This document shows, in pieces, positions 33,608 to 41,144 of a stretch of DNA of 41,144 nucleotides. Every line of letters begins with the position of its first letter. Position 1 is the stretch's first letter. The stretch lies in assembly GCA_964646045.1 (NCBI GenBank), contig CAZYAW010000105.1, positions 1 through 41,144 on the forward strand, read 5' to 3'. The notes under the pieces were generated by a model. It was not told where the DNA came from and made no database searches. It was given only the letters and a program-made list of their open reading frames with translations. The position numbers and the translations under genes are program-made. Source of the stretch: an uncultured Victivallales bacterium (GTDB lineage Bacteria; Verrucomicrobiota; Kiritimatiellia; UBA8416; SLMC01).

Positions 33608-35644
33608 CTACGGCGGCAAAACCCAGAAGTTTGTCAGCGTCTCTCCCGTGACGAAAAAGTGAACGGCGCCGATCATGCTGGGAAGAATCGCGCCGAGCAC
33701 TTCGCCCGCGATGAATCCGAACATCAGAGGCTTCAGGCGGTTGACCAGGGCCGAACCGCCGTAACGGTCGACGGCCAGCTTGACCAGCCATCCCAGCAGA
33801 AAGCTCGGAGCCGTGCGCTGGAGCGGAACGGTCGCGCACGTAACCATCAGGATGGGATGCAGGGGCCACCATGGCAAACGGAGTCGCGCCGCCGCGAGTC
33901 CGGCGGCTCCGATCAGACCGATGAACAAGGCCCAGCCACAGGACGGTTCCATCCGTATGCGGCTCACGTTCGACCCGCTCGGCGGTTGCATGGCTTGTTC
34001 CAGCTCGCCGCGGGCCTCGAGCTGCTGCTTGACCGCCGCGGCATTGTTGAGCGCAAAAGTGGGCACGTGCTGTTGCGTCCAAGTGTCCGCGACGGAGCTG
34101 CCCTGATCGTAGTGCAGGTACAGGGTCACGGGCAGGGCGACGGTTACGCAGACCACCAGGGCCACGGCGCACCAGACCGCAACGCGGCCGGGCGCGACGC
34201 GGTGCAGATCGAGCAATTTCCAGTTGTTGACGAGGAACGGCATCAGCGACTCGCGAGGGTCTATGAAGAGGACCGTGGAAACCATCTGAATCGCGACCAG
34301 CGTCGGCAGGCCGATGGCGCCGACGCCGAACAGGCCCCAGAGGGCGGCGCAGGGCCACACGAAAGGCTGCATATAGAACAAGCCGGCTTCGCTGATCAGC
34401 CGCCCCATGACCGTGTACAGAAGCATGAGCAGAAGGACGTACAATACGGCCATCGGCCAGGACACGCCGGCCAAACGGAGCTGCAGCGCCAGGACGAGGC
34501 TCATGACCAGGAACAGCCGGGCTCCCCAGGTTTCGTAAGGGGGAACGTCCGGATGGCCTCCGGGCCGCAAGGCATGGCCGAAAACCTGCCGGTAGTGGTG
34601 GCGCCCGGAATATACCAGCGCCCCGAACAAGCCCAGATTGCCGCCCAGTAGAAGGAACTGTCTCGGCTGGGGCGACAGGTAGTTGCCGGTCCCGATATTC
34701 GAGGTTTCGACCTGAATGCCGTAGGTCAGCAGCGCCCCGACCGCTACGGCGTACAGAAAGGGCCCGATCCCCAGCGAAAACGACACGTCTTTGGGAATCA
34801 TAAACGCGATCGCGACGACCGTAAAATAGAGAACCGGAGACAGCAGTTGCCGTCCCAGATGCGTATCCAGCGCCGGAATCAGTTCGCGGAAGGCCTGCAA
34901 ATTGAATTGGCGCTTAATCTCAATCACGTATTCGGGGAATGTCCCCGCCGCGAAGCGGCTCATATGCACCAGAAAGACGAGCGTCAGACCGGTCCAGAAC
35001 AGCCGGCTGCGCAGGACCGGGCTCCAGCGGCCGCTTTCGTCCGGGAAAAGGCTGTTGGTGAACGCGACGATCGGGTAGGGCAGATGTTCGTGGCGCGACC
35101 ATTGTCGGTGCAGCACGAGCGAAAGGCCGATCACGGCCAGCCACGTCGCCAGGAAAATCGGCAGCCAGAAGGCGACGGCGCGCGTCCACGCGCGCCACGG
35201 CACGTCGCGGAAGGAAATGGCTTCCGGCCCCGTGCGAAGCCCCTGGCGAAAGCCGTCCAGCACGCGGTTTTCGTCTTCCGACACGTCGGCCAGCATCCGG
35301 TCGGGGACCATCTCCATGACCTCCTGGCTGCGCCAGCTCGCATAGATGCGGTTGTAGTGCTGCGGCTGGATGAGCGACGTGCCGAAAGCGCGCATCATGC
35401 TGGAACCGGGAATACAGCAGGCGGCGAGAACGATGGCAAGCGCGACCGCGATTTCGGGACCGCGCAAGGCATGCCGTCCGAGCAGCGGCGCGGCCAGCAC
35501 GTACAGCAGCAGCATCCCGAACACCACGATCGGCATGTTGTTGCCGATCAGATGGGTCTGGTGCATCACATGGTCGTTAAAGAACGTTACGGCGGCGACG
35601 ATCACAACGCCTATTAAACCGAGAATGACGCTTCGCTTTGTCAT
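33608..35644 (-). CDS. 678-aa polytopic membrane protein, paralog of 31132-33567
   Basis: Colinear motifs TFFNDHVM, LVLHRQWSRHEHLPYPIVAF and KPLMFGFIAGEVLGAILPS. It lies 40 nt upstream of its paralog on the same strand. Confidence 0.75.
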   Translation of the reverse strand: MTKRSVILGLIGVVIVAAVTFFNDHVMHQTHLIGNNMPIVVFGMLLLYVLAAPLLGRHALRGPEIAVALAIVLAACCIPGSSMMRAFGTSLIQPQHYNRIYASWRSQEVMEMVPDRMLADVSEDENRVLDGFRQGLRTGPEAISFRDVPWRAWTRAVAFWLPIFLATWLAVIGLSLVLHRQWSRHEHLPYPIVAFTNSLFPDESGRWSPVLRSRLFWTGLTLVFLVHMSRFAAGTFPEYVIEIKRQFNLQAFRELIPALDTHLGRQLLSPVLYFTVVAIAFMIPKDVSFSLGIGPFLYAVAVGALLTYGIQVETSNIGTGNYLSPQPRQFLLLGGNLGLFGALVYSGRHHYRQVFGHALRPGGHPDVPPYETWGARLFLVMSLVLALQLRLAGVSWPMAVLYVLLLMLLYTVMGRLISEAGLFYMQPFVWPCAALWGLFGVGAIGLPTLVAIQMVSTVLFIDPRESLMPFLVNNWKLLDLHRVAPGRVAVWCAVALVVCVTVALPVTLYLHYDQGSSVADTWTQQHVPTFALNNAAAVKQQLEARGELEQAMQPPSGSNVSRIRMEPSCGWALFIGLIGAAGLAAARLRLPWWPLHPILMVTCATVPLQRTAPSFLLGWLVKLAVDRYGGSALVNRLKPLMFGFIAGEVLGAILPSMIGAVHFFVTGETLTNFWVLPP

Positions 35645-35871
35645 AAGGCATTTCTTTTGCTAGTGAATCCGCATGGCGAACTCGATGTGCGCGGAGATGC
35701 CGGCGCGACAATGCGTCGTTCCCGTGCGTGCCGATCCATGCTTTGCAGCCGTATTCCATTGCATAGCACAAGCCGCAAGGCGGAGGCAAACATAAAAACA
35801 CGGCTTTAATGGAGCCAGTCGGCGGGCGTCTACTCGAAGTTGCGCAATCGCGATAAATAGGCGCAAAAACC

Positions 35872-35900
35872 TTGACAAAGGCCGGCCGATCCAATAGATT
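35872..35900 (+). promoter_or_regulatory. Near-consensus sigma-70-type promoter, TTGACA-N17-TAGATT
   Basis: TTGACA at 35872-35877, an exact 17-nt spacer, and TAGATT at 35895-35900, read directly. It faces the hairpin and coding fragment to the right. Confidence 0.45.
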
Positions 35901-35925
35901 ATCCGCGTAAATAGGTGGTCCGTGG

Positions 35926-35944
35926 CACGGGCGTCCCGCCCGTG
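35926..35944. repeat. GC-rich REP-like hairpin (CACGGGCG tcc CGCCCGTG)
   Basis: Perfect 8-bp inverted repeat with a 3-nt loop, about 25 nt downstream of the promoter-like element. Confidence 0.5.
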
Positions 35945-35949
35945 AATAA

Positions 35950-36453
35950 TGTCATAATTTCACTGTCATCCCATGGAATAATGCCAATGGCGACAATACC
36001 GGCCGTGACGCGGGCTCGGTCTCGATCACGTCTGTCAACGAAAACATCACCGTCACCGGTTCGATCAATCTCAGCAAAGTGGACAACACGGCGCGCAACG
36101 GCAACCTGACGCTGTCCTGCGGCAATCGCATCGCGCTGTCGTCGCTGAACAAGAATCTGGTTCGGAACGTGAACTTGTCCGTGACGCTGGGCGGCACCGT
36201 ATCCAAGAAGGAATACATGTGGATCTGGATCAAGAGCGAGCCGACCAATTTCACGGTGGACGAAGGCCTCAAAAGGGTGACCGGGTTCACCGCCGTGGAC
36301 AGCCACGTGTACGACACCGACAACGCCGGGAGTCTGTCGGGCGACTACACCATCATGCTCGGCACTCTGAACCGTGAACGGCTTCGTTCTCCGACCCCTT
36401 CGTGCTCTTCGCGTCCTTCGTGGTGCAAATCGGGGTGCAAGGTCAGGCGCTGA
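35950..36453 (+). pseudogene. Start-less coding fragment (C-terminal remnant of a larger, probably secreted beta-rich protein)
   Basis: The frame is open from 35950 with clear codon bias (NITVTGSINLSKVDNTARNGNLTLSCGN...WIWIKSEPTNFTVDEGL). The first canonical start is GTG 36079. The 3' end runs into heptamer/nonamer repeats and overlaps the ychF stop. Confidence 0.4.
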
Positions 36454-37513
36454 AGCGCACGTTGATCACATCGCCGTCCTGCACCGGGTACTCCTTGCCC
36501 TCTTCCCGTACGCAGGGGCCGCCCTTGAGTTGCTTCCAGGGTCCGTTCGCCATGTAGTCCTGCAGACTGACGACCTCGGCGCGAATGAAGCCGCGCGAGA
36601 TGTCCTTGTGGATTTTGCCGGCCGCCTCGACGGCCCGTTCGTTGCGGTTGATCAGCCAGGCGCGACTTTCCGTGGGACCGATCGTAAAGAACGTGGCCTT
36701 GTCGGCCGCCTCCAGGGCGGCGCGCAGTACGCGCTCGCCGATCGGCACGCGGATGTCGAGCGCTTCGACGAACTCCCGGCGTTCCTCCTCCGCCAGATCG
36801 CCCAGCGCGCCTTCGGTCTCGACCGCGGCCGTCACGCAGCGGCGGTCGGCCATGAAAGAGGGCGGGGGCTCGTTCAATTGGTCGTCCTCCACGTTCAGGC
36901 AGAAGAGCGGCGCGCGTGCGGTCAGGAACGGAAACTGCGCCAGTCGGCGACGGCCGCCTTCGTCCAGATCGGCGTCGCGGGTGGGGACGCCCTCTTCCAG
37001 GGCCGCGCGCAGGGTTTGCAAAACGGCGATTTCCGCGTCGTACTCCGCCTTCTGTTCGCGCGGCGGCGTCTTGACGGATTCGATTTTCTCGATACGGCGC
37101 TCGATGATGGCCAGATCGCCCAGCAGCAGCTCGCTCTCCACCTCGCCCAGATCGCGGGCCGCATCCACGGAACCGAGCGGATGCGGTACGGCGTCGTTGC
37201 GGAAGGCCCGCAGCGTCACGATCAGCAGATCGAAATTGCGCACCTTGCCCAGCAGTTCGGCGCTGGTGCGGCGCGCGCCTTTTTCGCCAGAAAGCAAGCC
37301 GGTCACGTCGCTGAGGTTCACCTGGGCGAAAGTCGTTTTGCGGCTGTTTTCCAGTGTGGCCGCCGCGACCAGACGCGCGTCCGGCACCGCCGCGCCCAGG
37401 GTTTCCATGCCCTCCGAGCCGCCGAAACGGCCGGGGTTCGCGCGTACGCCGGTCAGCGCGCGAAACAGAGAGGTTTTGCCCGCGGCGGGCAGTCCGATAA
37501 TGCCAATATCCAT
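36443..37513 (-). CDS. ychF: Ribosome-binding ATPase YchF (Obg-like GTPase family)
   Basis: G1 motif IGIIGLPAAGKTSLFRALT and the C-terminal TGS-like FFTIGPTESRAWLI...AAGKIHKDISRGFIRAEV. Confidence 0.88.
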   Translation of the reverse strand: MDIGIIGLPAAGKTSLFRALTGVRANPGRFGGSEGMETLGAAVPDARLVAAATLENSRKTTFAQVNLSDVTGLLSGEKGARRTSAELLGKVRNFDLLIVTLRAFRNDAVPHPLGSVDAARDLGEVESELLLGDLAIIERRIEKIESVKTPPREQKAEYDAEIAVLQTLRAALEEGVPTRDADLDEGGRRRLAQFPFLTARAPLFCLNVEDDQLNEPPPSFMADRRCVTAAVETEGALGDLAEEERREFVEALDIRVPIGERVLRAALEAADKATFFTIGPTESRAWLINRNERAVEAAGKIHKDISRGFIRAEVVSLQDYMANGPWKQLKGGPCVREEGKEYPVQDGDVINVRFSA

Positions 37514-37571
37514 AGTTCGGTTCCTTTAAACGGGCTACGCCCGTATCTCAAATATCAGATTTCAAATCGTA

Positions 37572-37608
37572 ACTACTCAGGCATTCAGAATTCTGACTCC
37601 CTGAGTAG
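37572..37608. repeat. 37-nt hairpin with a 10-bp outer stem and a nested 12-bp palindrome TCAGAATTCTGA
   Basis: ACTACTCAGG ... CCTGAGTAGT encloses cat-TCAGAATTCTGA-ctc, read directly, about 60 nt upstream of the ychF start. Confidence 0.6.
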
Positions 37609-37842
37609 TAACGACGGAACAATATAAAACGTGGCAGTAGCGATCGGCGGTAATAGGTATACGGATTTCGCGGCGGACGCAAGCTCCAAAGTTCAGACTT
37701 CCTGACCTCGCAGGAAAACGCACAACCCGGTGTCTGGCCTTGAAAAGCCGTCCGCGGGTTTTCTATGGCCTGACACCATCCGGATGCAAGGAGTGACGAG
37801 AAGCCACGCATCTGAACCGCCAACAACGCCAAGAATGTTGGG

Positions 37843-37876
37843 GTAGCCACAAAAAGTCACGAGTAGCCACAAAAAG
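37843..37876 (+). promoter_or_regulatory. Two 14-bp direct repeats GTAGCCACAAAAAG, 20 bp apart; candidate operator of the antitoxin gene
   Basis: Exact repeats at 37843-37856 and 37863-37876, lying 47-80 nt upstream of ATG 37923. The function is inferred. Confidence 0.35.
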
Positions 37877-37922
37877 GGGCGACAAGCCCGCTCTCTCGCC
37901 AATCATTAGCGTGGAGGTAGGA

Positions 37923-38192
37923 ATGATTGCAACATACAAAGCGCGCTTGCTCGGCAACATGCTGGATTGGCAGGAAGAATCTCCGCCTGTTTCGTCTTCC
38001 ACTGTTTCGGTTCTGGTAACGGTGCTTCCCCATCCAGACACGCCCTTGCGCGCACATGAGCCTACAGGTAGCAGGCTGGCGGCTATCCTGAAAAGGCTGG
38101 CTCGGGAAAACACGGTTCCATCCATACCGAACCCCGTCGAATGGCAAAAAGAAATGCGCCGAGACAGGGTGTTGCCCGGACGAGAGGATTAA
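37923..38192 (+). CDS. Putative type II antitoxin (partner of a PIN-domain toxin)
   Basis: 89 aa. GGAGG lies 5 nt upstream of the ATG. The C-terminal EWQKEMRRDRVLPGRED resembles antitoxin tails seen upstream of vapC genes. Its stop abuts the ATG of a PIN-like ORF. Confidence 0.5.
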   Translation: MIATYKARLLGNMLDWQEESPPVSSSTVSVLVTVLPHPDTPLRAHEPTGSRLAAILKRLARENTVPSIPNPVEWQKEMRRDRVLPGRED

Positions 38193-38294
38193 ATGCTTCT
38201 GGACAGCAACATCATCATTTATGCGGCCCAACCCGGAGCCGTTGCGCTCCAAAACCATATTGCTTCGCGAGACGTCTTTATCCATTGTCTGTAG
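38193..38294 (+). pseudogene. Truncated PIN-domain (VapC-like) toxin, 33 codons
   Basis: MLLDSNIIIYAAQPGAV... is a typical VapC N-terminus with the first acidic residue. The frame stops after 33 aa, against an expected ~130 aa, about 20 nt before repeat copy A. Confidence 0.55.
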
Positions 38295-38313
38295 CCTGGC
38301 GCGGACATTCGCA

Positions 38314-38452
38314 ACGACAAACAGGCTCATTGAATCCTGGGCTTACAGCCCAAATATCATGCGAAAAATGCTTTGCAAGGCCCTCTGAGAGCCTTGTTTT
38401 GCGGAACAAGCCGTTCCTTATGAGAGAGTTATAGACGCTAAGCGTCGGGGGG
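38314..38452 (+). repeat. Repeat family copy A (~139 bp) ending in the palindrome GACGCTAAGCGTC
   Basis: By hand alignment it matches copy C (40843-40982) at roughly 70-75 percent. The two share ACGACAAACAGG, TTACAGCC, ATCATGCGAAAAATGC, a CAAGGC/GCCTTG hairpin followed by TTTT, and TATGAGA...TTAT.GACGCTAAGCGTCG. Confidence 0.75.
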
Positions 38453-39070
38453 TCTCTTTTGGATGGCCTGCTCTACGGCCTGAACCAGTTTCCGGTCTTC
38501 TGGCTTCGTGCGGCTACCGAACCGAGCCGCGATCTTGCCGTCCGCCCCGATGAGGAACTTATTGAAGTTCCACGAGATAGCGCCTCCGAATTCCGGGTTC
38601 GTTTCCTTCGAGGTCAGATACGCGTAGAGCGGATGCACATCTTTGCCTTTCACCGAGATCTTTGCGAACATCGGGAAGGTCACGCCATAGTTCAGCGTGC
38701 AGAACTGCTGAATCTCGGTATTGCTTCCCGGTTCCTGGCTCAGAAAATCGTTCGCCGGAAATCCGAGCACCAGAAAGCCTTGGTCCTTGTACGTCTTGTA
38801 CAACTTCTGCAGCCCCTCATACTGCCCGGTGAAGCCGCACTTGCTCGCGACATTCACGATCAGCAAAACCTTGCCCTTATAGTCCGCGAGCGCGACATCC
38901 TTGTCGTCGATGCTCTTGACAACGAAATCGTGAATACTCTTCATTTCTTGATTCCCTTCCTCCGCCAAGCCATCCTGATCGTTGGGCACAGCGCCTCGGC
39001 ACCCGCCGAGCATGAGCGCGACAACCATCCCGAGCGTTGAGAACCGCCTCAGCATAACTTCACGTCTCAT
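38438..39070 (-). CDS. Glutathione peroxidase (Cys-type), probable lipoprotein
   Basis: NVASKCGFT, LGFPANDF and WNFNKFL. The N-terminal signal has lipobox LMLGGC. The stop codon lies inside the palindrome of repeat copy A. Confidence 0.88.
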   Translation of the reverse strand: MRREVMLRRFSTLGMVVALMLGGCRGAVPNDQDGLAEEGNQEMKSIHDFVVKSIDDKDVALADYKGKVLLIVNVASKCGFTGQYEGLQKLYKTYKDQGFLVLGFPANDFLSQEPGSNTEIQQFCTLNYGVTFPMFAKISVKGKDVHPLYAYLTSKETNPEFGGAISWNFNKFLIGADGKIAARFGSRTKPEDRKLVQAVEQAIQKRPPDA

Positions 39071-39234
39071 TTCCCCCCAAATCTATCGGAGCGCACAGGT
39101 TGTCCGCGCTCTTGGCCGTGCGACCACAGACTGGATGACATGGATATGGCCCGTACATCAATGTGGGCAAGGTAGCGGAATCGGGCAGGCAATGTCAAGG
39201 CCTGCTGCCAATGTTTTTAGATTGTTCCGTCGTG

Positions 39235-39260
39235 AGATGCGACGCATATGCGTCGCATCT
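39235..39260. repeat. 26-bp perfect palindrome AGATGCGACGCATATGCGTCGCATCT
   Basis: Read directly. Its arms contain the same CGACGC/GCGTCG half-sites as the termini of repeat copies A, B and C. Confidence 0.8.
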
Positions 39261-39262
39261 TT

Positions 39263-39289
39263 ATTCGTGTGAATTCGTGTTCATTCGTG
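39263..39289 (+). repeat. Three ATTCGTG motifs phased at exactly 10 bp
   Basis: ATTCGTG at 39263, 39273 and 39283, read directly, immediately after the 26-bp palindrome. Confidence 0.7.
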
Positions 39290-39295
39290 GTTCAA

Positions 39296-39425
39296 CAGTT
39301 CGGTTGCGGGCGACAGCCCGCCTTAGGGACACACACGCTATCGGGAAAATCGCCTTGTGCCCGGCCGCTCGCGCCGACAGAAGGTCTGTCCCTTATGCCC
39401 TTATTATCGACGCTAAGCGTCGGCA
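39296..39425 (+). repeat. Repeat family copy B (diverged), ending in TCGACGCTAAGCGTCG
   Basis: The 3' module CCCTTATGCCCTTATTATCGACGCTAAGCGTCGG matches copies A and C. The 5' part (GGGCGACAGCCCGCC, ATCGGGAAAATCGCCTTGTGCC) is only loosely similar. Confidence 0.5.
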
Positions 39426-39545
39426 AGACATCTTTGCAATTAGCCGAATATTTTTGTATACAAACAAGAATAAATACCATACATATAGCCGAATGAATGA
39501 CAAACAATTAACCGAACGTTATCCGGCCATGCTTGGAGAGCATCA

Positions 39546-40796
39546 ATGACATATCATCCCCGGTTCGCCGACACGCTGCTTGGAAAGGGACTCGAAAGCG
39601 CAGGAGCGGTTTTGGTTGAGGGCCCAAAAGCCTGTGGAAAAACGGAAACGGCGGCACAAGTTGCCAAGAGTCAAGTCTGGTTCGACACGGATTCCGATGT
39701 TCCGATCAAGATGGACATTGATCCTCGTCTTGTTCTCGAGGGCCCAACACCGCGCCTCATTGATGAATGGCAACTCTTTCCGCACATCTGGGACTTCACG
39801 CGAAGAGAAGTGGATACAAGAAAGAAAAAAGGACAATTCATTCTCACAGGTTCGGCCACGCCGGATGATAAAGCCCGTCGCCATTCCGGCGCAGGTCGTT
39901 TTTCCGTGATACATATGCGAACCATGTCCTGGCTTGAACGGGGCTGGTCCTCCGGCGAGGTTTCGCTTCAGTCGCTTATCGAAACGGCCGCGCCCCATTC
40001 TGCAAACGCCGACTTTTCCATCCCGGGGCTCTGCGAGCAGATTGCCATTGGAGGATGGCCGGGCCTCATCGGGGAAACCCCCGAAGCTGCATTCGAATTC
40101 ACGAAAAACTATGTCAACGTCATTGCCGAGGCGGATGTGGATCGTGTTTCGGATCGGCGACGGAACGCCGCAAAAGTACGGCGCTTCATCCGTTCCCTTG
40201 CGCGCAATGTCTCGACGGAAGCCTCCCTGCATGCGATGGCTTCCGATGCCGCCGGCAGCGATGACACTCTCGATGACGACACTGCCCGAGCCTATTTACA
40301 GGCGCTGGAACGTCTGATGGTCACCGAGAATCTGCCCGCTTGGAATCCGCACATTCGATCCTCTGCCGCGCTGCGCAAATCTCCGAAACGCCACTTCTGC
40401 GACCCTTCGCTGGCGCTGGGGGCGCTCGGTATCACCGCGCGAAAACTGGCTTCCGACTTGCATTACCTGGGAATGCTCTTCGAGTCTGCTGCCATTCGAG
40501 ATCTTCGTGTCTATGCTTGGGCAAACGGAGGATATGTCTCCCACTACCGGGATGCCGCCGGGCATGAGGTCGACGCCATTGTCGAGCGCCCCGATGGGAG
40601 GTGGGGAGCGTTCGAGGTAAAAATGGGCATGGGCGCCGTCGACGAGGCTGCGGCCAGCCTGCTCGCCCTGGCGGCAATAATCGATACAAGCAAAACGCCG
40701 CCGCCGGAAGTCTTGTGTGTCATCACGGGAAACGGCTTTGCCCACCGACGCAAAGATGGCGTCTGCGTTGCGCCCCTCGCAACACTTGGCCCATAG
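39546..40796 (+). CDS. AAA-type ATP-binding protein (AAA_14 plus DUF4143-like architecture)
   Basis: Walker A is VEGPKACGKTE and Walker-B-like is FILTGS. Length and C-terminal pattern (GHEVDAIVERPDGRWGAFEVK) are typical of the DUF4143 ATPase family. The domain names are recalled, not verified. Confidence 0.75.
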   Translation: MTYHPRFADTLLGKGLESAGAVLVEGPKACGKTETAAQVAKSQVWFDTDSDVPIKMDIDPRLVLEGPTPRLIDEWQLFPHIWDFTRREVDTRKKKGQFILTGSATPDDKARRHSGAGRFSVIHMRTMSWLERGWSSGEVSLQSLIETAAPHSANADFSIPGLCEQIAIGGWPGLIGETPEAAFEFTKNYVNVIAEADVDRVSDRRRNAAKVRRFIRSLARNVSTEASLHAMASDAAGSDDTLDDDTARAYLQALERLMVTENLPAWNPHIRSSAALRKSPKRHFCDPSLALGALGITARKLASDLHYLGMLFESAAIRDLRVYAWANGGYVSHYRDAAGHEVDAIVERPDGRWGAFEVKMGMGAVDEAAASLLALAAIIDTSKTPPPEVLCVITGNGFAHRRKDGVCVAPLATLGP

Positions 40797-40842
40797 AAAA
40801 ATATCAGGGACACACCCGCTGTCAGCCCATCGCTTATCGGCC

Positions 40843-40982
40843 ACGACAAACAGGGCCAAGGGATACCGGGTTTACAGCCAAAAAATCATGCGAAAAATGC
40901 CCCGCAAGCCCCTCTACAGGCCTTGTTTTTGTAGCAAAGCATTCAGTATGAGATGTTTATCGACGCTAAGCGTCGATGGGGT
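40843..40982 (+). repeat. Repeat family copy C (~140 bp) ending in TCGACGCTAAGCGTCGA
   Basis: Same orientation as copy A. It starts 47 nt after the stop of the ATPase gene. Confidence 0.75.
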
Positions 40983-41144
40983 GAGGCTCAACCTCGTTAC
41001 AGCTTAAAACACGATTGTTTTTTTGCCTGTAAGGGCCAGAACTGATACTTGAGAGTACCGAGTTCTTAGCGTGACCGGCAAGCTCTTTTGGTGTTTTTTT
41101 TGGTGCGTAGCCGGGACGCTGCGAGACATAGCTCGACCCATCGG

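What the first reader, a model, noticed from the sequence alone, without database searches (positions are those of the whole stretch)
37514..41144. AT-richer, cassette-like accessory segment punctuated by a same-orientation ~140-bp repeat
After ychF the composition becomes visibly less GC-rich. The genes are unrelated accessory types: a toxin-antitoxin remnant, a glutathione peroxidase on the opposite strand, and an AAA/DUF4143-like ATPase.

Three copies of one repeat family end at 38452, 39425 and 40982, all in plus orientation. They delimit units of about 1.0 and 1.55 kb, each with one gene. That layout resembles an integron-type cassette array or serial insertion of a small non-autonomous element.

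I could not find canonical attC R''/R' boxes (RYYYAAC / GTTRRRY) or an integrase in the window, so the mechanism would be non-canonical or encoded elsewhere.
Basis: partly seen in the sequence, partly recalled or inferred. Interest (0 to 1): 0.65.

Follow-up and report, generated by a model that had tools for sequence, protein, structure and literature searches.

The report
Hairpin repeats punctuating a defence island
The flagged segment is the first 3.6 kb of a roughly 33-kb low-GC defence and toxin-antitoxin island next to ychF in an uncultured Kiritimatiellae-like bacterium, and its gene modules are separated by same-orientation repeats ending in one conserved hairpin that are not integron sites and look most like REP/transposon-type palindromic elements.

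Summary
GC falls from 0.64 to 0.54 after ychF. Three + strand copies of TTAT-N-GACGC-TAA-GCGTCG end near 38452, 39425 and 40982, spaced 975 and 1553 nt, with one gene per unit. Only A and C share the ~140-nt body (77% identity). B shares about 36 nt, and its body belongs to another, far more abundant repeat family.

Walking through metagenome contigs of the same population shows that the window is the edge of a ~33-kb defence/TA island. The island holds seven core hairpins, all in one orientation and all at module junctions. There are none in 37.5 kb of adjacent core genome.

It is not an integron. No integrase was found, there are no R''/R' boxes, and the ATPase gene occurs elsewhere at 85% and 97.6% identity without the repeat. 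A RAYT-like Y1 (HUH) transposase homologue lies at the far end of the island.

Best reading (about 0.4): these are REP/PATE-like hairpin elements handled as single-stranded DNA, which have accumulated at module junctions. No mobility was observed. A non-canonical cassette system remains possible (about 0.17).

The parts
36443..37513 (-). ychF, the last core-genome gene before the island (GC 0.67, GC3 0.82)
   Evidence: ORF; PF06071 in the gene table; composition
37514..41144 (.). Proximal 3.6 kb of a ~33-kb low-GC island (GC 0.48-0.58) that continues beyond the contig end
   Evidence: continuation in L001, L040, L045 and L047
37923..38192 (+). 89-aa VapB-like small protein, member of a conserved family with a C-terminal DPVxWQRExRxDRxLPGRE motif
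   Evidence: 399 homologues; alignment; no Pfam family
38195..38296 (+). 33-codon N-terminal remnant of a PIN (VapC-type) toxin gene; the rest was deleted up to repeat A
   Evidence: N-terminus matches the ORF that follows a VapB-like homologue in L049, which has a weak PIN hit
38311..38428 (+). Repeat A, U140-type body, starting at ACGACAAACAGG and lacking the 45-nt 5' extension seen in C and D
38429..38452 (+). Core hairpin A (TTATAGACGC-TAA-GCGTCGGGGGG). The gpx stop codon lies in its loop. RNA contigs from both directions end here
   Evidence: RNA contigs 37927-38453 and 38433-38829
38438..39055 (-). Glutathione peroxidase gene module
   Evidence: PF00255, E 1.2e-40; same context in all 16 contigs that carry it
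39217..39399 (+). K-type repeat body: an 11-bp palindrome GATGCGACGCA/TGCGTCGCATC followed by T-run, then a TTCGTG-rich stretch, a second hairpin, and a 77-nt part with inverted ends AGGGACA...TGTCCCT. Member of a much more abundant family
   Evidence: depth 125-1900 versus 29; fold z-scores of -3.8 and -5.0; further copies in L040
39404..39425 (+). Core hairpin B (TTATCGACGC-TAA-GCGTCGG), single-copy depth, joined to the K-type body
39434..40796 (+). DUF4143/AAA_14 ATPase module with its own upstream region (gene at 39546-40796). Matches the PADLOC candidate defence family PDC-S01
   Evidence: Homology to L034 spans window 39434-40795 only; Pfam; PADLOC 210 bits
40797..40956 (+). Repeat C body: a 45-nt 5' extension (AAAAATATCAGGGACACACC...) plus the U140 body
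40957..40993 (+). Core hairpin C (TTATCGACGC-TAA-GCGTCGATGGGG) and a short tail shared with copy D
41048..41144 (.). Edge of a multi-copy insertion sequence (DUF6788, DDE_5 transposase, SEC-C). It interrupts the island in this strain and ends the contig
   Evidence: Depth jumps to 259-690; genes in L002; L001-type strains lack it

Best explanation
Where it sits. The segment is the ychF-proximal edge of a ~33-kb horizontally assembled defence and toxin-antitoxin island. The host is an uncultured, probably Kiritimatiellae, bacterium from meromictic and soda lakes.

What the repeats are. The island's gene modules are separated by a lineage-specific family of composite palindromic repeats. Each repeat has two parts:
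- a variable body, either the ~140-nt 'U140' type or a piece of an abundant 'K' element;
- a conserved ~25-45-nt core, ..CCTTATG-N6-13-TTATCGACGC-TAA-GCGTCGATGGGG, which forms a perfect 6-8-bp hairpin.

Proposed mechanism. I read these as REP/PATE-like non-autonomous elements. The hairpin would be recognised on one DNA strand, when single-stranded, by an HUH/Y1 enzyme of the RAYT / IS200-IS605 kind. One such enzyme is encoded in the island. Strand-specific cleavage and rejoining would explain three features:
- all copies point the same way, whatever the orientation of the neighbouring genes;
- copies are 5'-truncated, internally deleted or fused;
- they sit exactly where independently acquired modules abut.
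The hairpin probably also marks or stabilises transcript 3' ends.

Shown: the repeats, their anatomy, co-orientation, junction positions, restriction to the island within the sequence seen, and the presence of a RAYT-like gene.

Inferred: that this enzyme, or any enzyme, acts on the hairpin, and that the units move.
For: - Seven cores lie on the same strand across about 25 kb of the island, and none in 37.5 kb of adjacent core genome.
- Two unrelated bodies, U140 (A, C, D, E) and K (B, core3), are joined to the same core in nearly the same register.
- C and D are 92-95% identical over about 195 nt, with the same 5' and 3' ends but unrelated flanks on both sides.
- Other copies are damaged in ways typical of decaying elements. 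A and E begin at the same internal point. E is cut in the hairpin loop by an inverted K fragment. Core3 carries a 16-nt duplication.
- At least one more U140 copy, at the genome's own depth, lies outside the sequence walked.
- The ATPase module in another organism (85% identity) matches window 39434-40795, that is, from 8 nt after hairpin B to the base before repeat C. A soda-lake copy at 97.6% identity loses homology 11 nt after the stop codon and continues into a different, K-like repeat.
- The K element starts with a palindrome that has the same CGACGC/GCGTCG stem as the core. Its contig depth is about 60 times the flanks, which is REP-like abundance.
- L047:2837-3823 matches the REP-associated tyrosine transposase model NF047646 (E 1.4e-18) and PF01797 above its cut-off. 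It has the HUH motif (DHFHALV) and the YYERIV tyrosine region.
- RNA contigs from the convergent vapB and gpx genes both end at hairpin A.
Against: - No mobility was seen. Every contig of the population carries A, B and C in the same places. Strain differences inside the island are not at the cores.
- The RAYT-like gene is not flanked by the core hairpin. It scores below the NCBIfam cut-off (67 versus 80 bits). It carries an extra C-terminal domain and overlaps hsdM, so it may belong to the restriction-modification locus instead.
- Copy number of the core is very low for REPs, about 7-9 seen. There is no GTAG tag, no inverted pairs (REPINs), no target-site duplication and no common target sequence.
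- Depth from Logan contigs cannot tell many copies in one genome from sharing among abundant organisms.
- With only four U140 copies, covariation is uninformative.
Confidence: 0.4

Rival explanations
1. A non-canonical gene-cassette system. The core hairpin, with its body, is the recombination site of an unknown site-specific recombinase. Modules (gene plus downstream repeat) are inserted and excised at the cores, as attC sites work in chromosomal integrons, but without IntI or attC sequence features.
For: - The cores are co-oriented at every module junction, and short single-gene units (975, 1553 and 1461 nt) lie between them.
- The content is typical of chromosomal integron cassettes: TA pairs and defence genes.
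- Both DUF4143 ATPase genes are bracketed by two cores.
- Repeat C starts at the base after the ATPase stop codon.
- Units can stand directly head to tail without a gene, as with E followed by a new 5' module. This is what a site array would look like before an insertion.
- Both bodies contain a large imperfect stem ahead of the small hairpin.
Against: - No recombinase was found in about 70 kb.
- There are no R''/R' boxes, and the unit ends do not pair.
- The ATPase gene at 97.6% and 85% identity elsewhere lacks the repeat that should travel with it.
- The ATPase module brings its own conserved 112-nt upstream region, which contains a promoter-like TTGCAA-17-TATACA by eye.
- Segments between cores can be 15.6 kb and 4.4 kb long.
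- No excision or alternative order was seen among 20 or more contigs.
- Some copies are truncated.
Confidence: 0.17
2. Passive relics. The repeats are duplicated intergenic or 3'-UTR segments, with a terminator or RNA-stabiliser hairpin, spread within the island by ordinary duplication, homologous recombination and gene conversion. No dedicated enzyme is involved, and the co-orientation is inherited from tandem duplication.
For: - Five of seven cores lie downstream of a gene's 3' end.
- Convergent RNA contigs end at hairpin A.
- U140 contains a conserved small stem followed by a T-run.
- L004 looks like a homologous recombinant, or an assembly chimera, between C and D across their identical 66 nt.
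- The arrangement is fixed in the population.
Against: - The hairpin is not followed by a T-run on either strand.
- B and core3 lie between divergent genes.
- Two unrelated bodies carry the same core.
- C and D share exact ends, yet have unrelated flanks 15.6 kb apart.
- A further copy lies outside the sequence walked.
Confidence: 0.23
3. Scars of serial site-specific integration. Each incoming element carried a copy of the attachment site, so attL/attR-type direct repeats accumulated at one hotspot next to ychF.
For: - The repeats are direct and of graded similarity (77-95%) at the borders of foreign DNA next to a conserved gene.
- The island is variable between strains at its edges.
Against: - Units of 1-1.5 kb carry no integrase.
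- No tRNA, tmRNA or Rfam RNA gene serves as a target.
- The repeat nearest to ychF is a truncated copy, not an intact target gene.
- The bodies are of two unrelated kinds.
Confidence: 0.07

Closest known systems
REP / BIME elements with RAYT (REP-associated tyrosine transposase), including the GTAG- and CGTC-tagged palindrome families (PMC3733652, PMC2817692)
   Same: - A short perfect hairpin of 8 bp whose two outer pairs are A-T, the stem feature described for CGTC-type REPs in PMC3733652.
- Intergenic position, mostly downstream of genes, and probably transcribed.
- Association with other repeat modules to form mosaic units.
- A RAYT-like Y1 protein is encoded nearby.
   Different: - Only about 7-9 copies seen, rather than hundreds.
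- All copies are in one orientation rather than inverted pairs.
- No GTAG or terminal CGTC tag.
- The loop is 3 nt.
- The RAYT-like gene is not flanked by the hairpin and is fused to an extra domain next to hsdM.
Sedentary chromosomal integron / CALIN (cluster of attC sites lacking an integrase)
   Same: - A co-oriented array of imperfect repeats of 100-200 nt separating short, mostly single-gene units that encode TA and defence functions.
- A repeat begins right at a stop codon.
   Different: - No IntI and no R''/R' or L''/L' boxes.
- The unit ends do not pair.
- The repeats do not travel with the gene.
- Modules have their own upstream regions.
- Some inter-repeat segments are 4-16 kb long.
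IS200/IS605-derived palindrome-associated transposable elements (PATEs)
   Same: - No terminal inverted repeats or target duplications.
- A sub-terminal hairpin about 10-17 nt from the 3' end.
- In unit B, the 5' palindrome and the 3' hairpin share the stem CGACGC/GCGTCG on the same strand.
- The strand bias fits a single-strand mechanism.
   Different: - No conserved target tetranucleotide before the 5' ends (CATAG versus CCGCG).
- U140 units have no matching 5' hairpin.
- No canonical ~150-aa TnpA was seen.
Acinetobacter pdif modules (XerC/D-bounded gene modules)
   Same: Small single-function modules (TA, accessory genes) bounded by short conserved sites.
   Different: - pdif sites are 28-bp XerC-spacer-XerD sites in alternating orientation.
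- Here the arms are 6-9 bp around a 3-7-nt centre, all sites are direct, and TTATG/TTAT are direct rather than inverted.

Membership tests
Integron / attC array | IntI-type tyrosine recombinase with attI next to the array (absent in CALINs) | tested here: not met
   No integrase domain among the ORFs scanned in the window. None among called genes in about 33 kb downstream. Not every small ORF was scanned.
Integron / attC array | Inverse core sites R'' RYYYAAC and R' GTTRRRY at the two ends of each repeat | tested here: not met
   All copies were read on both strands. The nearest candidates are GACAAAC with GTTTTTG in C (GTTTTGC in A), which do not fit the consensus. B and D have no GTT near the core.
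Integron / attC array | Single-strand fold in which the 5' and 3' ends of the site pair (R''-R', L''-L') with extrahelical bases | tested here: inconclusive
   Folds show only the terminal small hairpin and an internal long-range stem. The unit ends do not pair, and z-scores are -0.8 to -2.4. Alignment folds have a positive covariation term. The IntegronFinder attC model is not available here.
Integron / attC array | The attC belongs to the cassette and travels with its gene | tested here: not met
   The ATPase at 85% identity (L034) and at 97.6% identity (run X7) lacks repeat C. Homology ends at the stop codon or 11 nt after it.
Integron / attC array | Co-oriented repeats delimiting short gene units | tested here: met
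   Seven of seven cores are on one strand. Units of 975, 1553 and 1461 nt occur, but so do segments of 15.6 and 4.4 kb.
REP / RAYT | Short (20-40 nt) imperfect palindrome in intergenic DNA | tested here: met
   The hairpin ATCGACGC-TAA-GCGTCGAT is present in every minimum-free-energy fold. All copies are intergenic or overlap the last codons of a gene.
REP / RAYT | High copy number, dispersed around the chromosome | tested here: not met
   The core hairpin reaches only about 3-4 times the genome's depth in run X1, and 7 copies were mapped, all in the island. The K palindrome reaches about 60 times, but depth cannot separate copies within one genome from sharing between organisms.
REP / RAYT | Conserved GTAG (or CGTC) tetranucleotide at one end of the palindrome | tested here: not met
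   The flanks are TTAT on the 5' side and (A)TGGGG on the 3' side. CGTC occurs only inside the stem (definition from PMC3733652).
REP / RAYT | A RAYT gene in the genome, typically flanked by its REPs | tested here: inconclusive
   L047:2837-3823 matches NF047646 at E 1.4e-18, 67 bits against a cut-off of 80, and PF01797 at 25.6 bits against 23. No core-like hairpin flanks it.
REP / RAYT | REP pairs in inverted orientation (REPIN / BIME) | tested here: not met
   All cores are direct. Only K fragments occur in both orientations.
IS200/IS605-type PATE | Similar sub-terminal hairpins at both ends on the same strand, with no TIR or TSD | tested here: inconclusive
   Unit B has a 5' palindrome and a 3' hairpin with the same CGACGC/GCGTCG stem. 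However, the abundant K family ends at 39399, before the 3' hairpin. U140 units have no matching 5' hairpin. No TIR or TSD was seen at C or D.
IS200/IS605-type PATE | Insertion 3' of a fixed tetra- or pentanucleotide | tested here: not met
   The 5' flanks of the two full-length copies differ..GCCCATAG before C and ..TGTCCGCG before D.
Type I TA / small-RNA repeat loci (SIB, LDR type) | Conserved small toxic-peptide ORF and antisense RNA in each repeat | tested here: not met
   Reading frames differ between A and C and are broken by indels and stops. The only shared ORF is 5 codons long (by eye). Rfam finds nothing at E up to 1.

The most novel reading that the evidence does not exclude
The conserved hairpin core is the attachment site of a previously undescribed, integrase-independent cassette system. 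The system would assemble defence islands in PVC-group bacteria, possibly run by the RAYT-like Y1 fusion protein encoded beside hsdM. It would act on one DNA strand, which would explain the strict co-orientation and the exact placement of independently acquired defence modules between sites.
Probability: 0.15. Interest if true: 0.8.

Novelty: new variant of a known kind. Interest (0 to 1): 0.45.

Why it matters
How defence islands are assembled and reshuffled is an open question outside the few cases with a known vehicle, such as integrons, phage satellites and transposons.

Here, independently acquired modules abut at one conserved, strictly co-oriented hairpin. The modules include a PDC-S01-type ATPase, gpx, TA pairs and restriction-type genes. 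The host lineage is little studied, and an HUH/Y1 gene lies in the same island.

If the hairpins are substrates of that enzyme, this would tie REP/RAYT-type single-strand chemistry to the building of defence islands. If they are only decaying repeats, the locus is an ordinary island with a lineage-specific repeat family.

Either way, the case warns that cassette-like periodic repeats are not sufficient to call an integron.

Tried and rejected
- **Rfam** (all families, E up to 1) on 35000-41144: nothing.
- **tRNA/tmRNA scan:** none.
- **Pattern scans.** I searched TATG-N6-TTAT-N-GACGC-N3-GCGTC in 185,579 species genomes and in the JGI metagenome collection.
  - These gave 8 and 6 hits. By my estimate that is about chance level, and none resembles the repeat body.
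  - Two Balneolaceae hits share the hairpin and a GGG-rich tail. They are single-copy, at orthologous sites upstream of a gene, and were judged coincidental.
  - The source contigs themselves are not in those two collections.
- **attC reading on both strands:** rejected (see the membership test).
- **Xer/dif reading:** TTATG and TTAT are direct, not inverted, and the arms are too short.
- **Coding or type I toxin reading of the repeat:** frames are not conserved.
- **In-frame extension after the ATPase stop.** The frame stays open for 45 codons into repeat C. I judged this chance, because homologues end at the same 416 residues.
- **Covariation:** three or four sequences are too few. Only one compensatory change in the long-range stem was seen, and that by hand.
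- **ychF synteny.** The nearest YchF relatives are only 71% and 64% identical and have unrelated neighbours. The island borders could therefore not be set by synteny.
- **DUF4143 homologues in other Kiritimatiellae MAGs (L031-L033, L035):** no repeat nearby.
- **L004.** It first looked like a strain with different DNA after repeat C. It is a C/D hybrid across 66 identical bases, either a real recombinant or an assembly chimera.
- **A 'B-prime' inverted partial copy to the right of hairpin B.** Dropped, because that stretch is the conserved upstream region of the ATPase gene in L034.

Full report

Composition. GC is 0.544 for 37514-41144 against 0.643 for the 37.5 kb before it. None of 339 equal-sized windows upstream falls below 0.599 (profile). 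GC3 drops from 0.80-0.83 in ychF, secA and prfB to 0.57-0.75 in the three genes of the segment.

Repeat. The 19-mer TTATCGACGCTAAGCGTCG, allowing up to 1 mismatch, occurs at 38429, 39404 and 40957, always on the + strand. About 0.04 matches are expected by chance. The spacings are 975 and 1553 nt.

Correction on copy B. A (38311-38452) and C (40840-40982) share a ~140-nt body at 77% identity. B shares only the last ~36 nt, TATG-N6-TTAT-N-GACGC-TAA-GCGTCG.

Gene calls.
- Glutathione peroxidase: PF00255, E 1e-40.
- AAA_14/DUF4143 ATPase.
- The 'TA remnant' has no profile hit but is supported indirectly. The 89-aa protein belongs to a conserved family with 399 homologues. In locus L049 a homologue is followed directly by an ORF beginning MLADSNLIIYASRP, compared with MLLDSNIIIYAAQP here, and that ORF has a weak PIN match.
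- The 33-codon ORF at 38195-38296 is therefore the stump of a VapC-type gene. It is cut off 15 nt before repeat A.

**2. Where the window comes from and what lies beyond it**

Source. The window is a whole 41,144-nt contig. It ends inside a multi-copy insertion sequence whose edge is at 41047/41048, where depth jumps from about 30 to 260-690. Locus L002 shows DUF6788, a DDE_5 transposase and a SEC-C protein there.

Organism. The closest named homologues of island genes are from Kiritimatiellae MAGs. The nearest YchF relatives are only 71% identical, so this is an isolated lineage. The rest of the window encodes housekeeping genes, among them SecA, PrfB, Lnt, IspD and ABC transporters, with no integrase.

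Walking. I walked through JGI metagenome contigs that encode exactly the same proteins and joined L001, L040 and L045 by perfect or near-perfect overlaps. The low-GC DNA (0.48-0.58) continues for about 33 kb. The gene order is:
- vapB / vapC stump;
- gpx;
- DUF4143 ATPase 1;
- a PcfJ-like protein, a ClpB-like AAA protein, PP2C, an FHA-kinase, AbiEi/AbiEii, further kinases and a sigma-like protein;
- DUF4143 ATPase 2, on the other strand;
- Phd/PIN;
- MazE-like/Fic, HNH, NERD, PLD and a second NERD;
- Mrr, HsdM and a Y1-transposase-like protein.

GC then returns to 0.68. PADLOC models match many of these genes. Both ATPases match the candidate defence family PDC-S01, at 210 and 542 bits. The flagged segment is therefore the proximal edge of a defence/TA island.

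**3. Anatomy of the repeat family**

Number and placement. A profile of the core finds seven copies in the joined island, all on the + strand in window orientation. It finds none in the 37.5 kb of core genome.
- A, B and C lie in the window.
- D is at L040 8965-9158.
- E is at L040 7521-7649.
- 'core3' is at L040 6058-6094.
- A degenerate 'core4' is at L040 1669-1702.

Seven of seven on one strand has a two-sided probability of about 0.016.

Extended core. It reads ..CCTTATG, then 6-13 nt, then TTATCGACGC-TAA-GCGTCGATGGGG.

Two unrelated bodies precede the core.
- The U140 body occurs in A, C, D and E and starts at ACGACAAACAGG. C and D carry an extra 45 nt at the 5' end.
- The K body occurs in B and core3. 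K belongs to a far more abundant family. Logan contig depth over 39217-39259 is 1600-1900 against 29 for the flanks. It falls in steps to 39399, and the hairpin itself is at single-copy depth.
- K opens with an 11-bp palindrome, GATGCGACGCA/TGCGTCGCATC, followed by T-run. Its stem contains the same CGACGC/GCGTCG as the core.

State of the copies.
- C and D are 92-95% identical over about 195 nt. They start and end at the same bases but have unrelated flanks and lie 15.6 kb apart.
- E is cut in the hairpin loop by an inverted K fragment. Core3 has a 16-nt duplication.
- At least one further U140 copy, at the genome's own depth, lies outside the DNA I could reach.

**4. Relation to the gene modules**

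- The gpx stop codon lies in the loop of hairpin A.
- Repeat C begins at the base after the ATPase stop codon.
- The ATPase 2 stop lies in the tail of D, and E abuts its upstream region.
- In an unrelated assembly (L034), the ATPase gene at 85% nucleotide identity aligns to window 39434-40795 and no further. That is from 8 nt after hairpin B, including a conserved 112-nt upstream region, to the last base before repeat C.
- A soda-lake copy at 97.6% identity loses homology 11 nt after the stop and continues into a K-like sequence.

So the ATPase is a self-contained module that moves between genomes without repeat C. The repeats occupy the seams between modules.

**5. Transcription**

Metatranscriptome contigs cover vapB through repeat A as one piece, ending at 38453. 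The gpx contig starts at 38433. The convergent transcripts therefore both appear to end at hairpin A. Depth is low (4-7), and contigs carry no strand information. The hairpin has no T-run on either side. B and core3 lie between divergent genes, so termination cannot be the whole story.

**6. Tests of the integron reading**

- No integrase was found in about 70 kb.
- There are no RYYYAAC/GTTRRRY boxes on either strand.
- The ends of the unit do not pair. Single-strand folds show only the small terminal hairpin and an internal stem, with weak z-scores.
- Alignment folds give no covariation support.
- The repeat does not travel with its gene.
- Inter-repeat segments can be 15.6 kb long.
- All 20 or more contigs of the population show the same order. 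Strain differences inside the island are not at the cores.

What is integron-like is the layout only.

**7. The Y1 gene**

L047:2837-3823 (328 aa) matches the REP-associated tyrosine transposase model NF047646 at E 1.4e-18 and 67 bits, below the 80-bit equivalog cut-off. It matches PF01797 at 25.6 bits against a cut-off of 23.

The sequence shows the features expected of RAYTs (from my own knowledge of the family): the YFVT strand, the HUH motif in DHFHALV, and the tyrosine region WHRNYYERIV. It also has a His-Ala repeat insertion and an unassigned C-terminal domain.

Its stop overlaps the hsdM start. No core-like hairpin flanks it. The link to the repeats therefore rests on proximity and plausibility only.

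**8. Explanation**

The best-supported reading (about 0.4) is that these are REP/PATE-like composite palindromic elements. The conserved hairpin would be handled on one DNA strand by an HUH/Y1-type enzyme.

This would account for:
- strict co-orientation regardless of gene direction;
- one core joined to two unrelated bodies;
- exact shared ends of C and D in unrelated contexts;
- truncated, fused and duplicated copies;
- an abundant sister palindrome with the same stem.

The hairpins would then be both passengers in, and recombination-prone seams of, an island built from independently acquired modules.

Rivals:
- Passive duplicated 3'-UTR or terminator relics (0.23).
- A non-canonical cassette system using the core as its site (0.17).
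- att-site scars of serial integration (0.07).

No mobility event was observed, and the complete genome was not available, so none of these is excluded.

**9. Novelty and verdict**

This is a lineage-specific repeat family of a known general kind, palindromic intergenic repeats. Its pattern is unusual: low copy number, island-associated, strictly co-oriented, and placed at module junctions in a defence island.

I rate it a new variant of a known kind and of moderate interest. The integron interpretation is not supported. The alternative of a small non-autonomous element, and the suggestion to look for a Y1/RAYT gene, are the parts that held up.

Noticed in passing
window 37713-37881 (strongest at 37722-37785): A short element with DNA contig depth of 350-1150 against about 35 for its neighbours. 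Metatranscriptome contigs reach depth 70-112 against about 4 for nearby mRNAs. It folds into a long hairpin, GGUGUC.GGCC...GGCC.GACACC. Joints in other contigs ('goes back 169') show it is tandemly repeated elsewhere. It may be an abundant small RNA or REP-like family. Rfam has no match.
   Followed up: partly
window 36391-36429: A 39-nt TTCGTG-rich stretch just beyond the ychF stop has depth of about 1900. In other DNA and RNA contigs it is joined directly to the 37713-37881 element ('36429 to 37722 skips 1292'; '37876 to 36391'). The two pieces that flank ychF here are therefore contiguous elsewhere.
   Followed up: partly
window 39217-39259: The palindrome GATGCGACGCATATGCGTCGCATC followed by T-run looks like an intrinsic terminator. 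Its depth is 1600-1900 in the meromictic-lake run and about 400 in a soda-lake run where this organism is at about 5. It is either a very abundant REP-like unit or is shared among many organisms.
   Followed up: partly
window 41048-41144; L002 10928-13189: An insertion sequence (DUF6788 gene, DDE_5 transposase, SEC-C protein) interrupts the island 66 nt after repeat C in this strain and ends the contig. L001-type strains lack it.
   Followed up: partly
L001 8110-8356 (insertion at window 37902/37903): A 248-bp MITE-like insertion with ~30-nt inverted ends (GGGTCAAGTCTAAATATACGATTCCGCTGAA) is present in L001, L005 and L006 and absent from the window strain.
   Followed up: partly
L047 2837-3823: A RAYT-like Y1/HUH protein with an internal (His-Ala)n repeat and an unassigned ~140-aa C-terminal domain. 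Its stop overlaps the start of hsdM, in a Y1-like / HsdM / Mrr gene row. This is an unusual partner for a restriction-modification locus.
   Followed up: partly
L004 7380-7575 versus window 40797-40993: L004 carries a hybrid repeat. It is identical to C up to 40908 and identical to D afterwards, and it joins ATPase 1 directly to ATPase 2. It is either a 15.6-kb deletion by recombination between C and D or an assembly chimera across 66 identical bases.
   Followed up: partly
window 37567-37614: A 24-nt-arm palindrome (88% complementary, no spacer) lies upstream of the ychF start codon. Its function is unknown.
   Followed up: no
window 40797-40934: After the ATPase TAG stop, the same reading frame stays open for 45 codons through repeat C. 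Homologues all end at residue 416, so this is probably chance.
   Followed up: partly
L040 versus L041 (L040 5194-5252; 10677-14878): Strains differ inside the island in two places. One is a 1.7-kb insertion (an AbiEii-like gene plus a 295-aa gene) flanked by a ~59-nt direct repeat of a gene start. The other is a swapped kinase/TPR block. Neither difference is at a core hairpin.
   Followed up: partly
L009 7477-7510 and L012 6681-6714 (Balneolaceae MAGs): TTATCGACGC-TTG-GCGTCG followed by TAGGGTAAGAGGGG resembles the core plus its G-rich tail. It is single-copy, at the same site upstream of a gene in two species, and was judged coincidental.
   Followed up: partly
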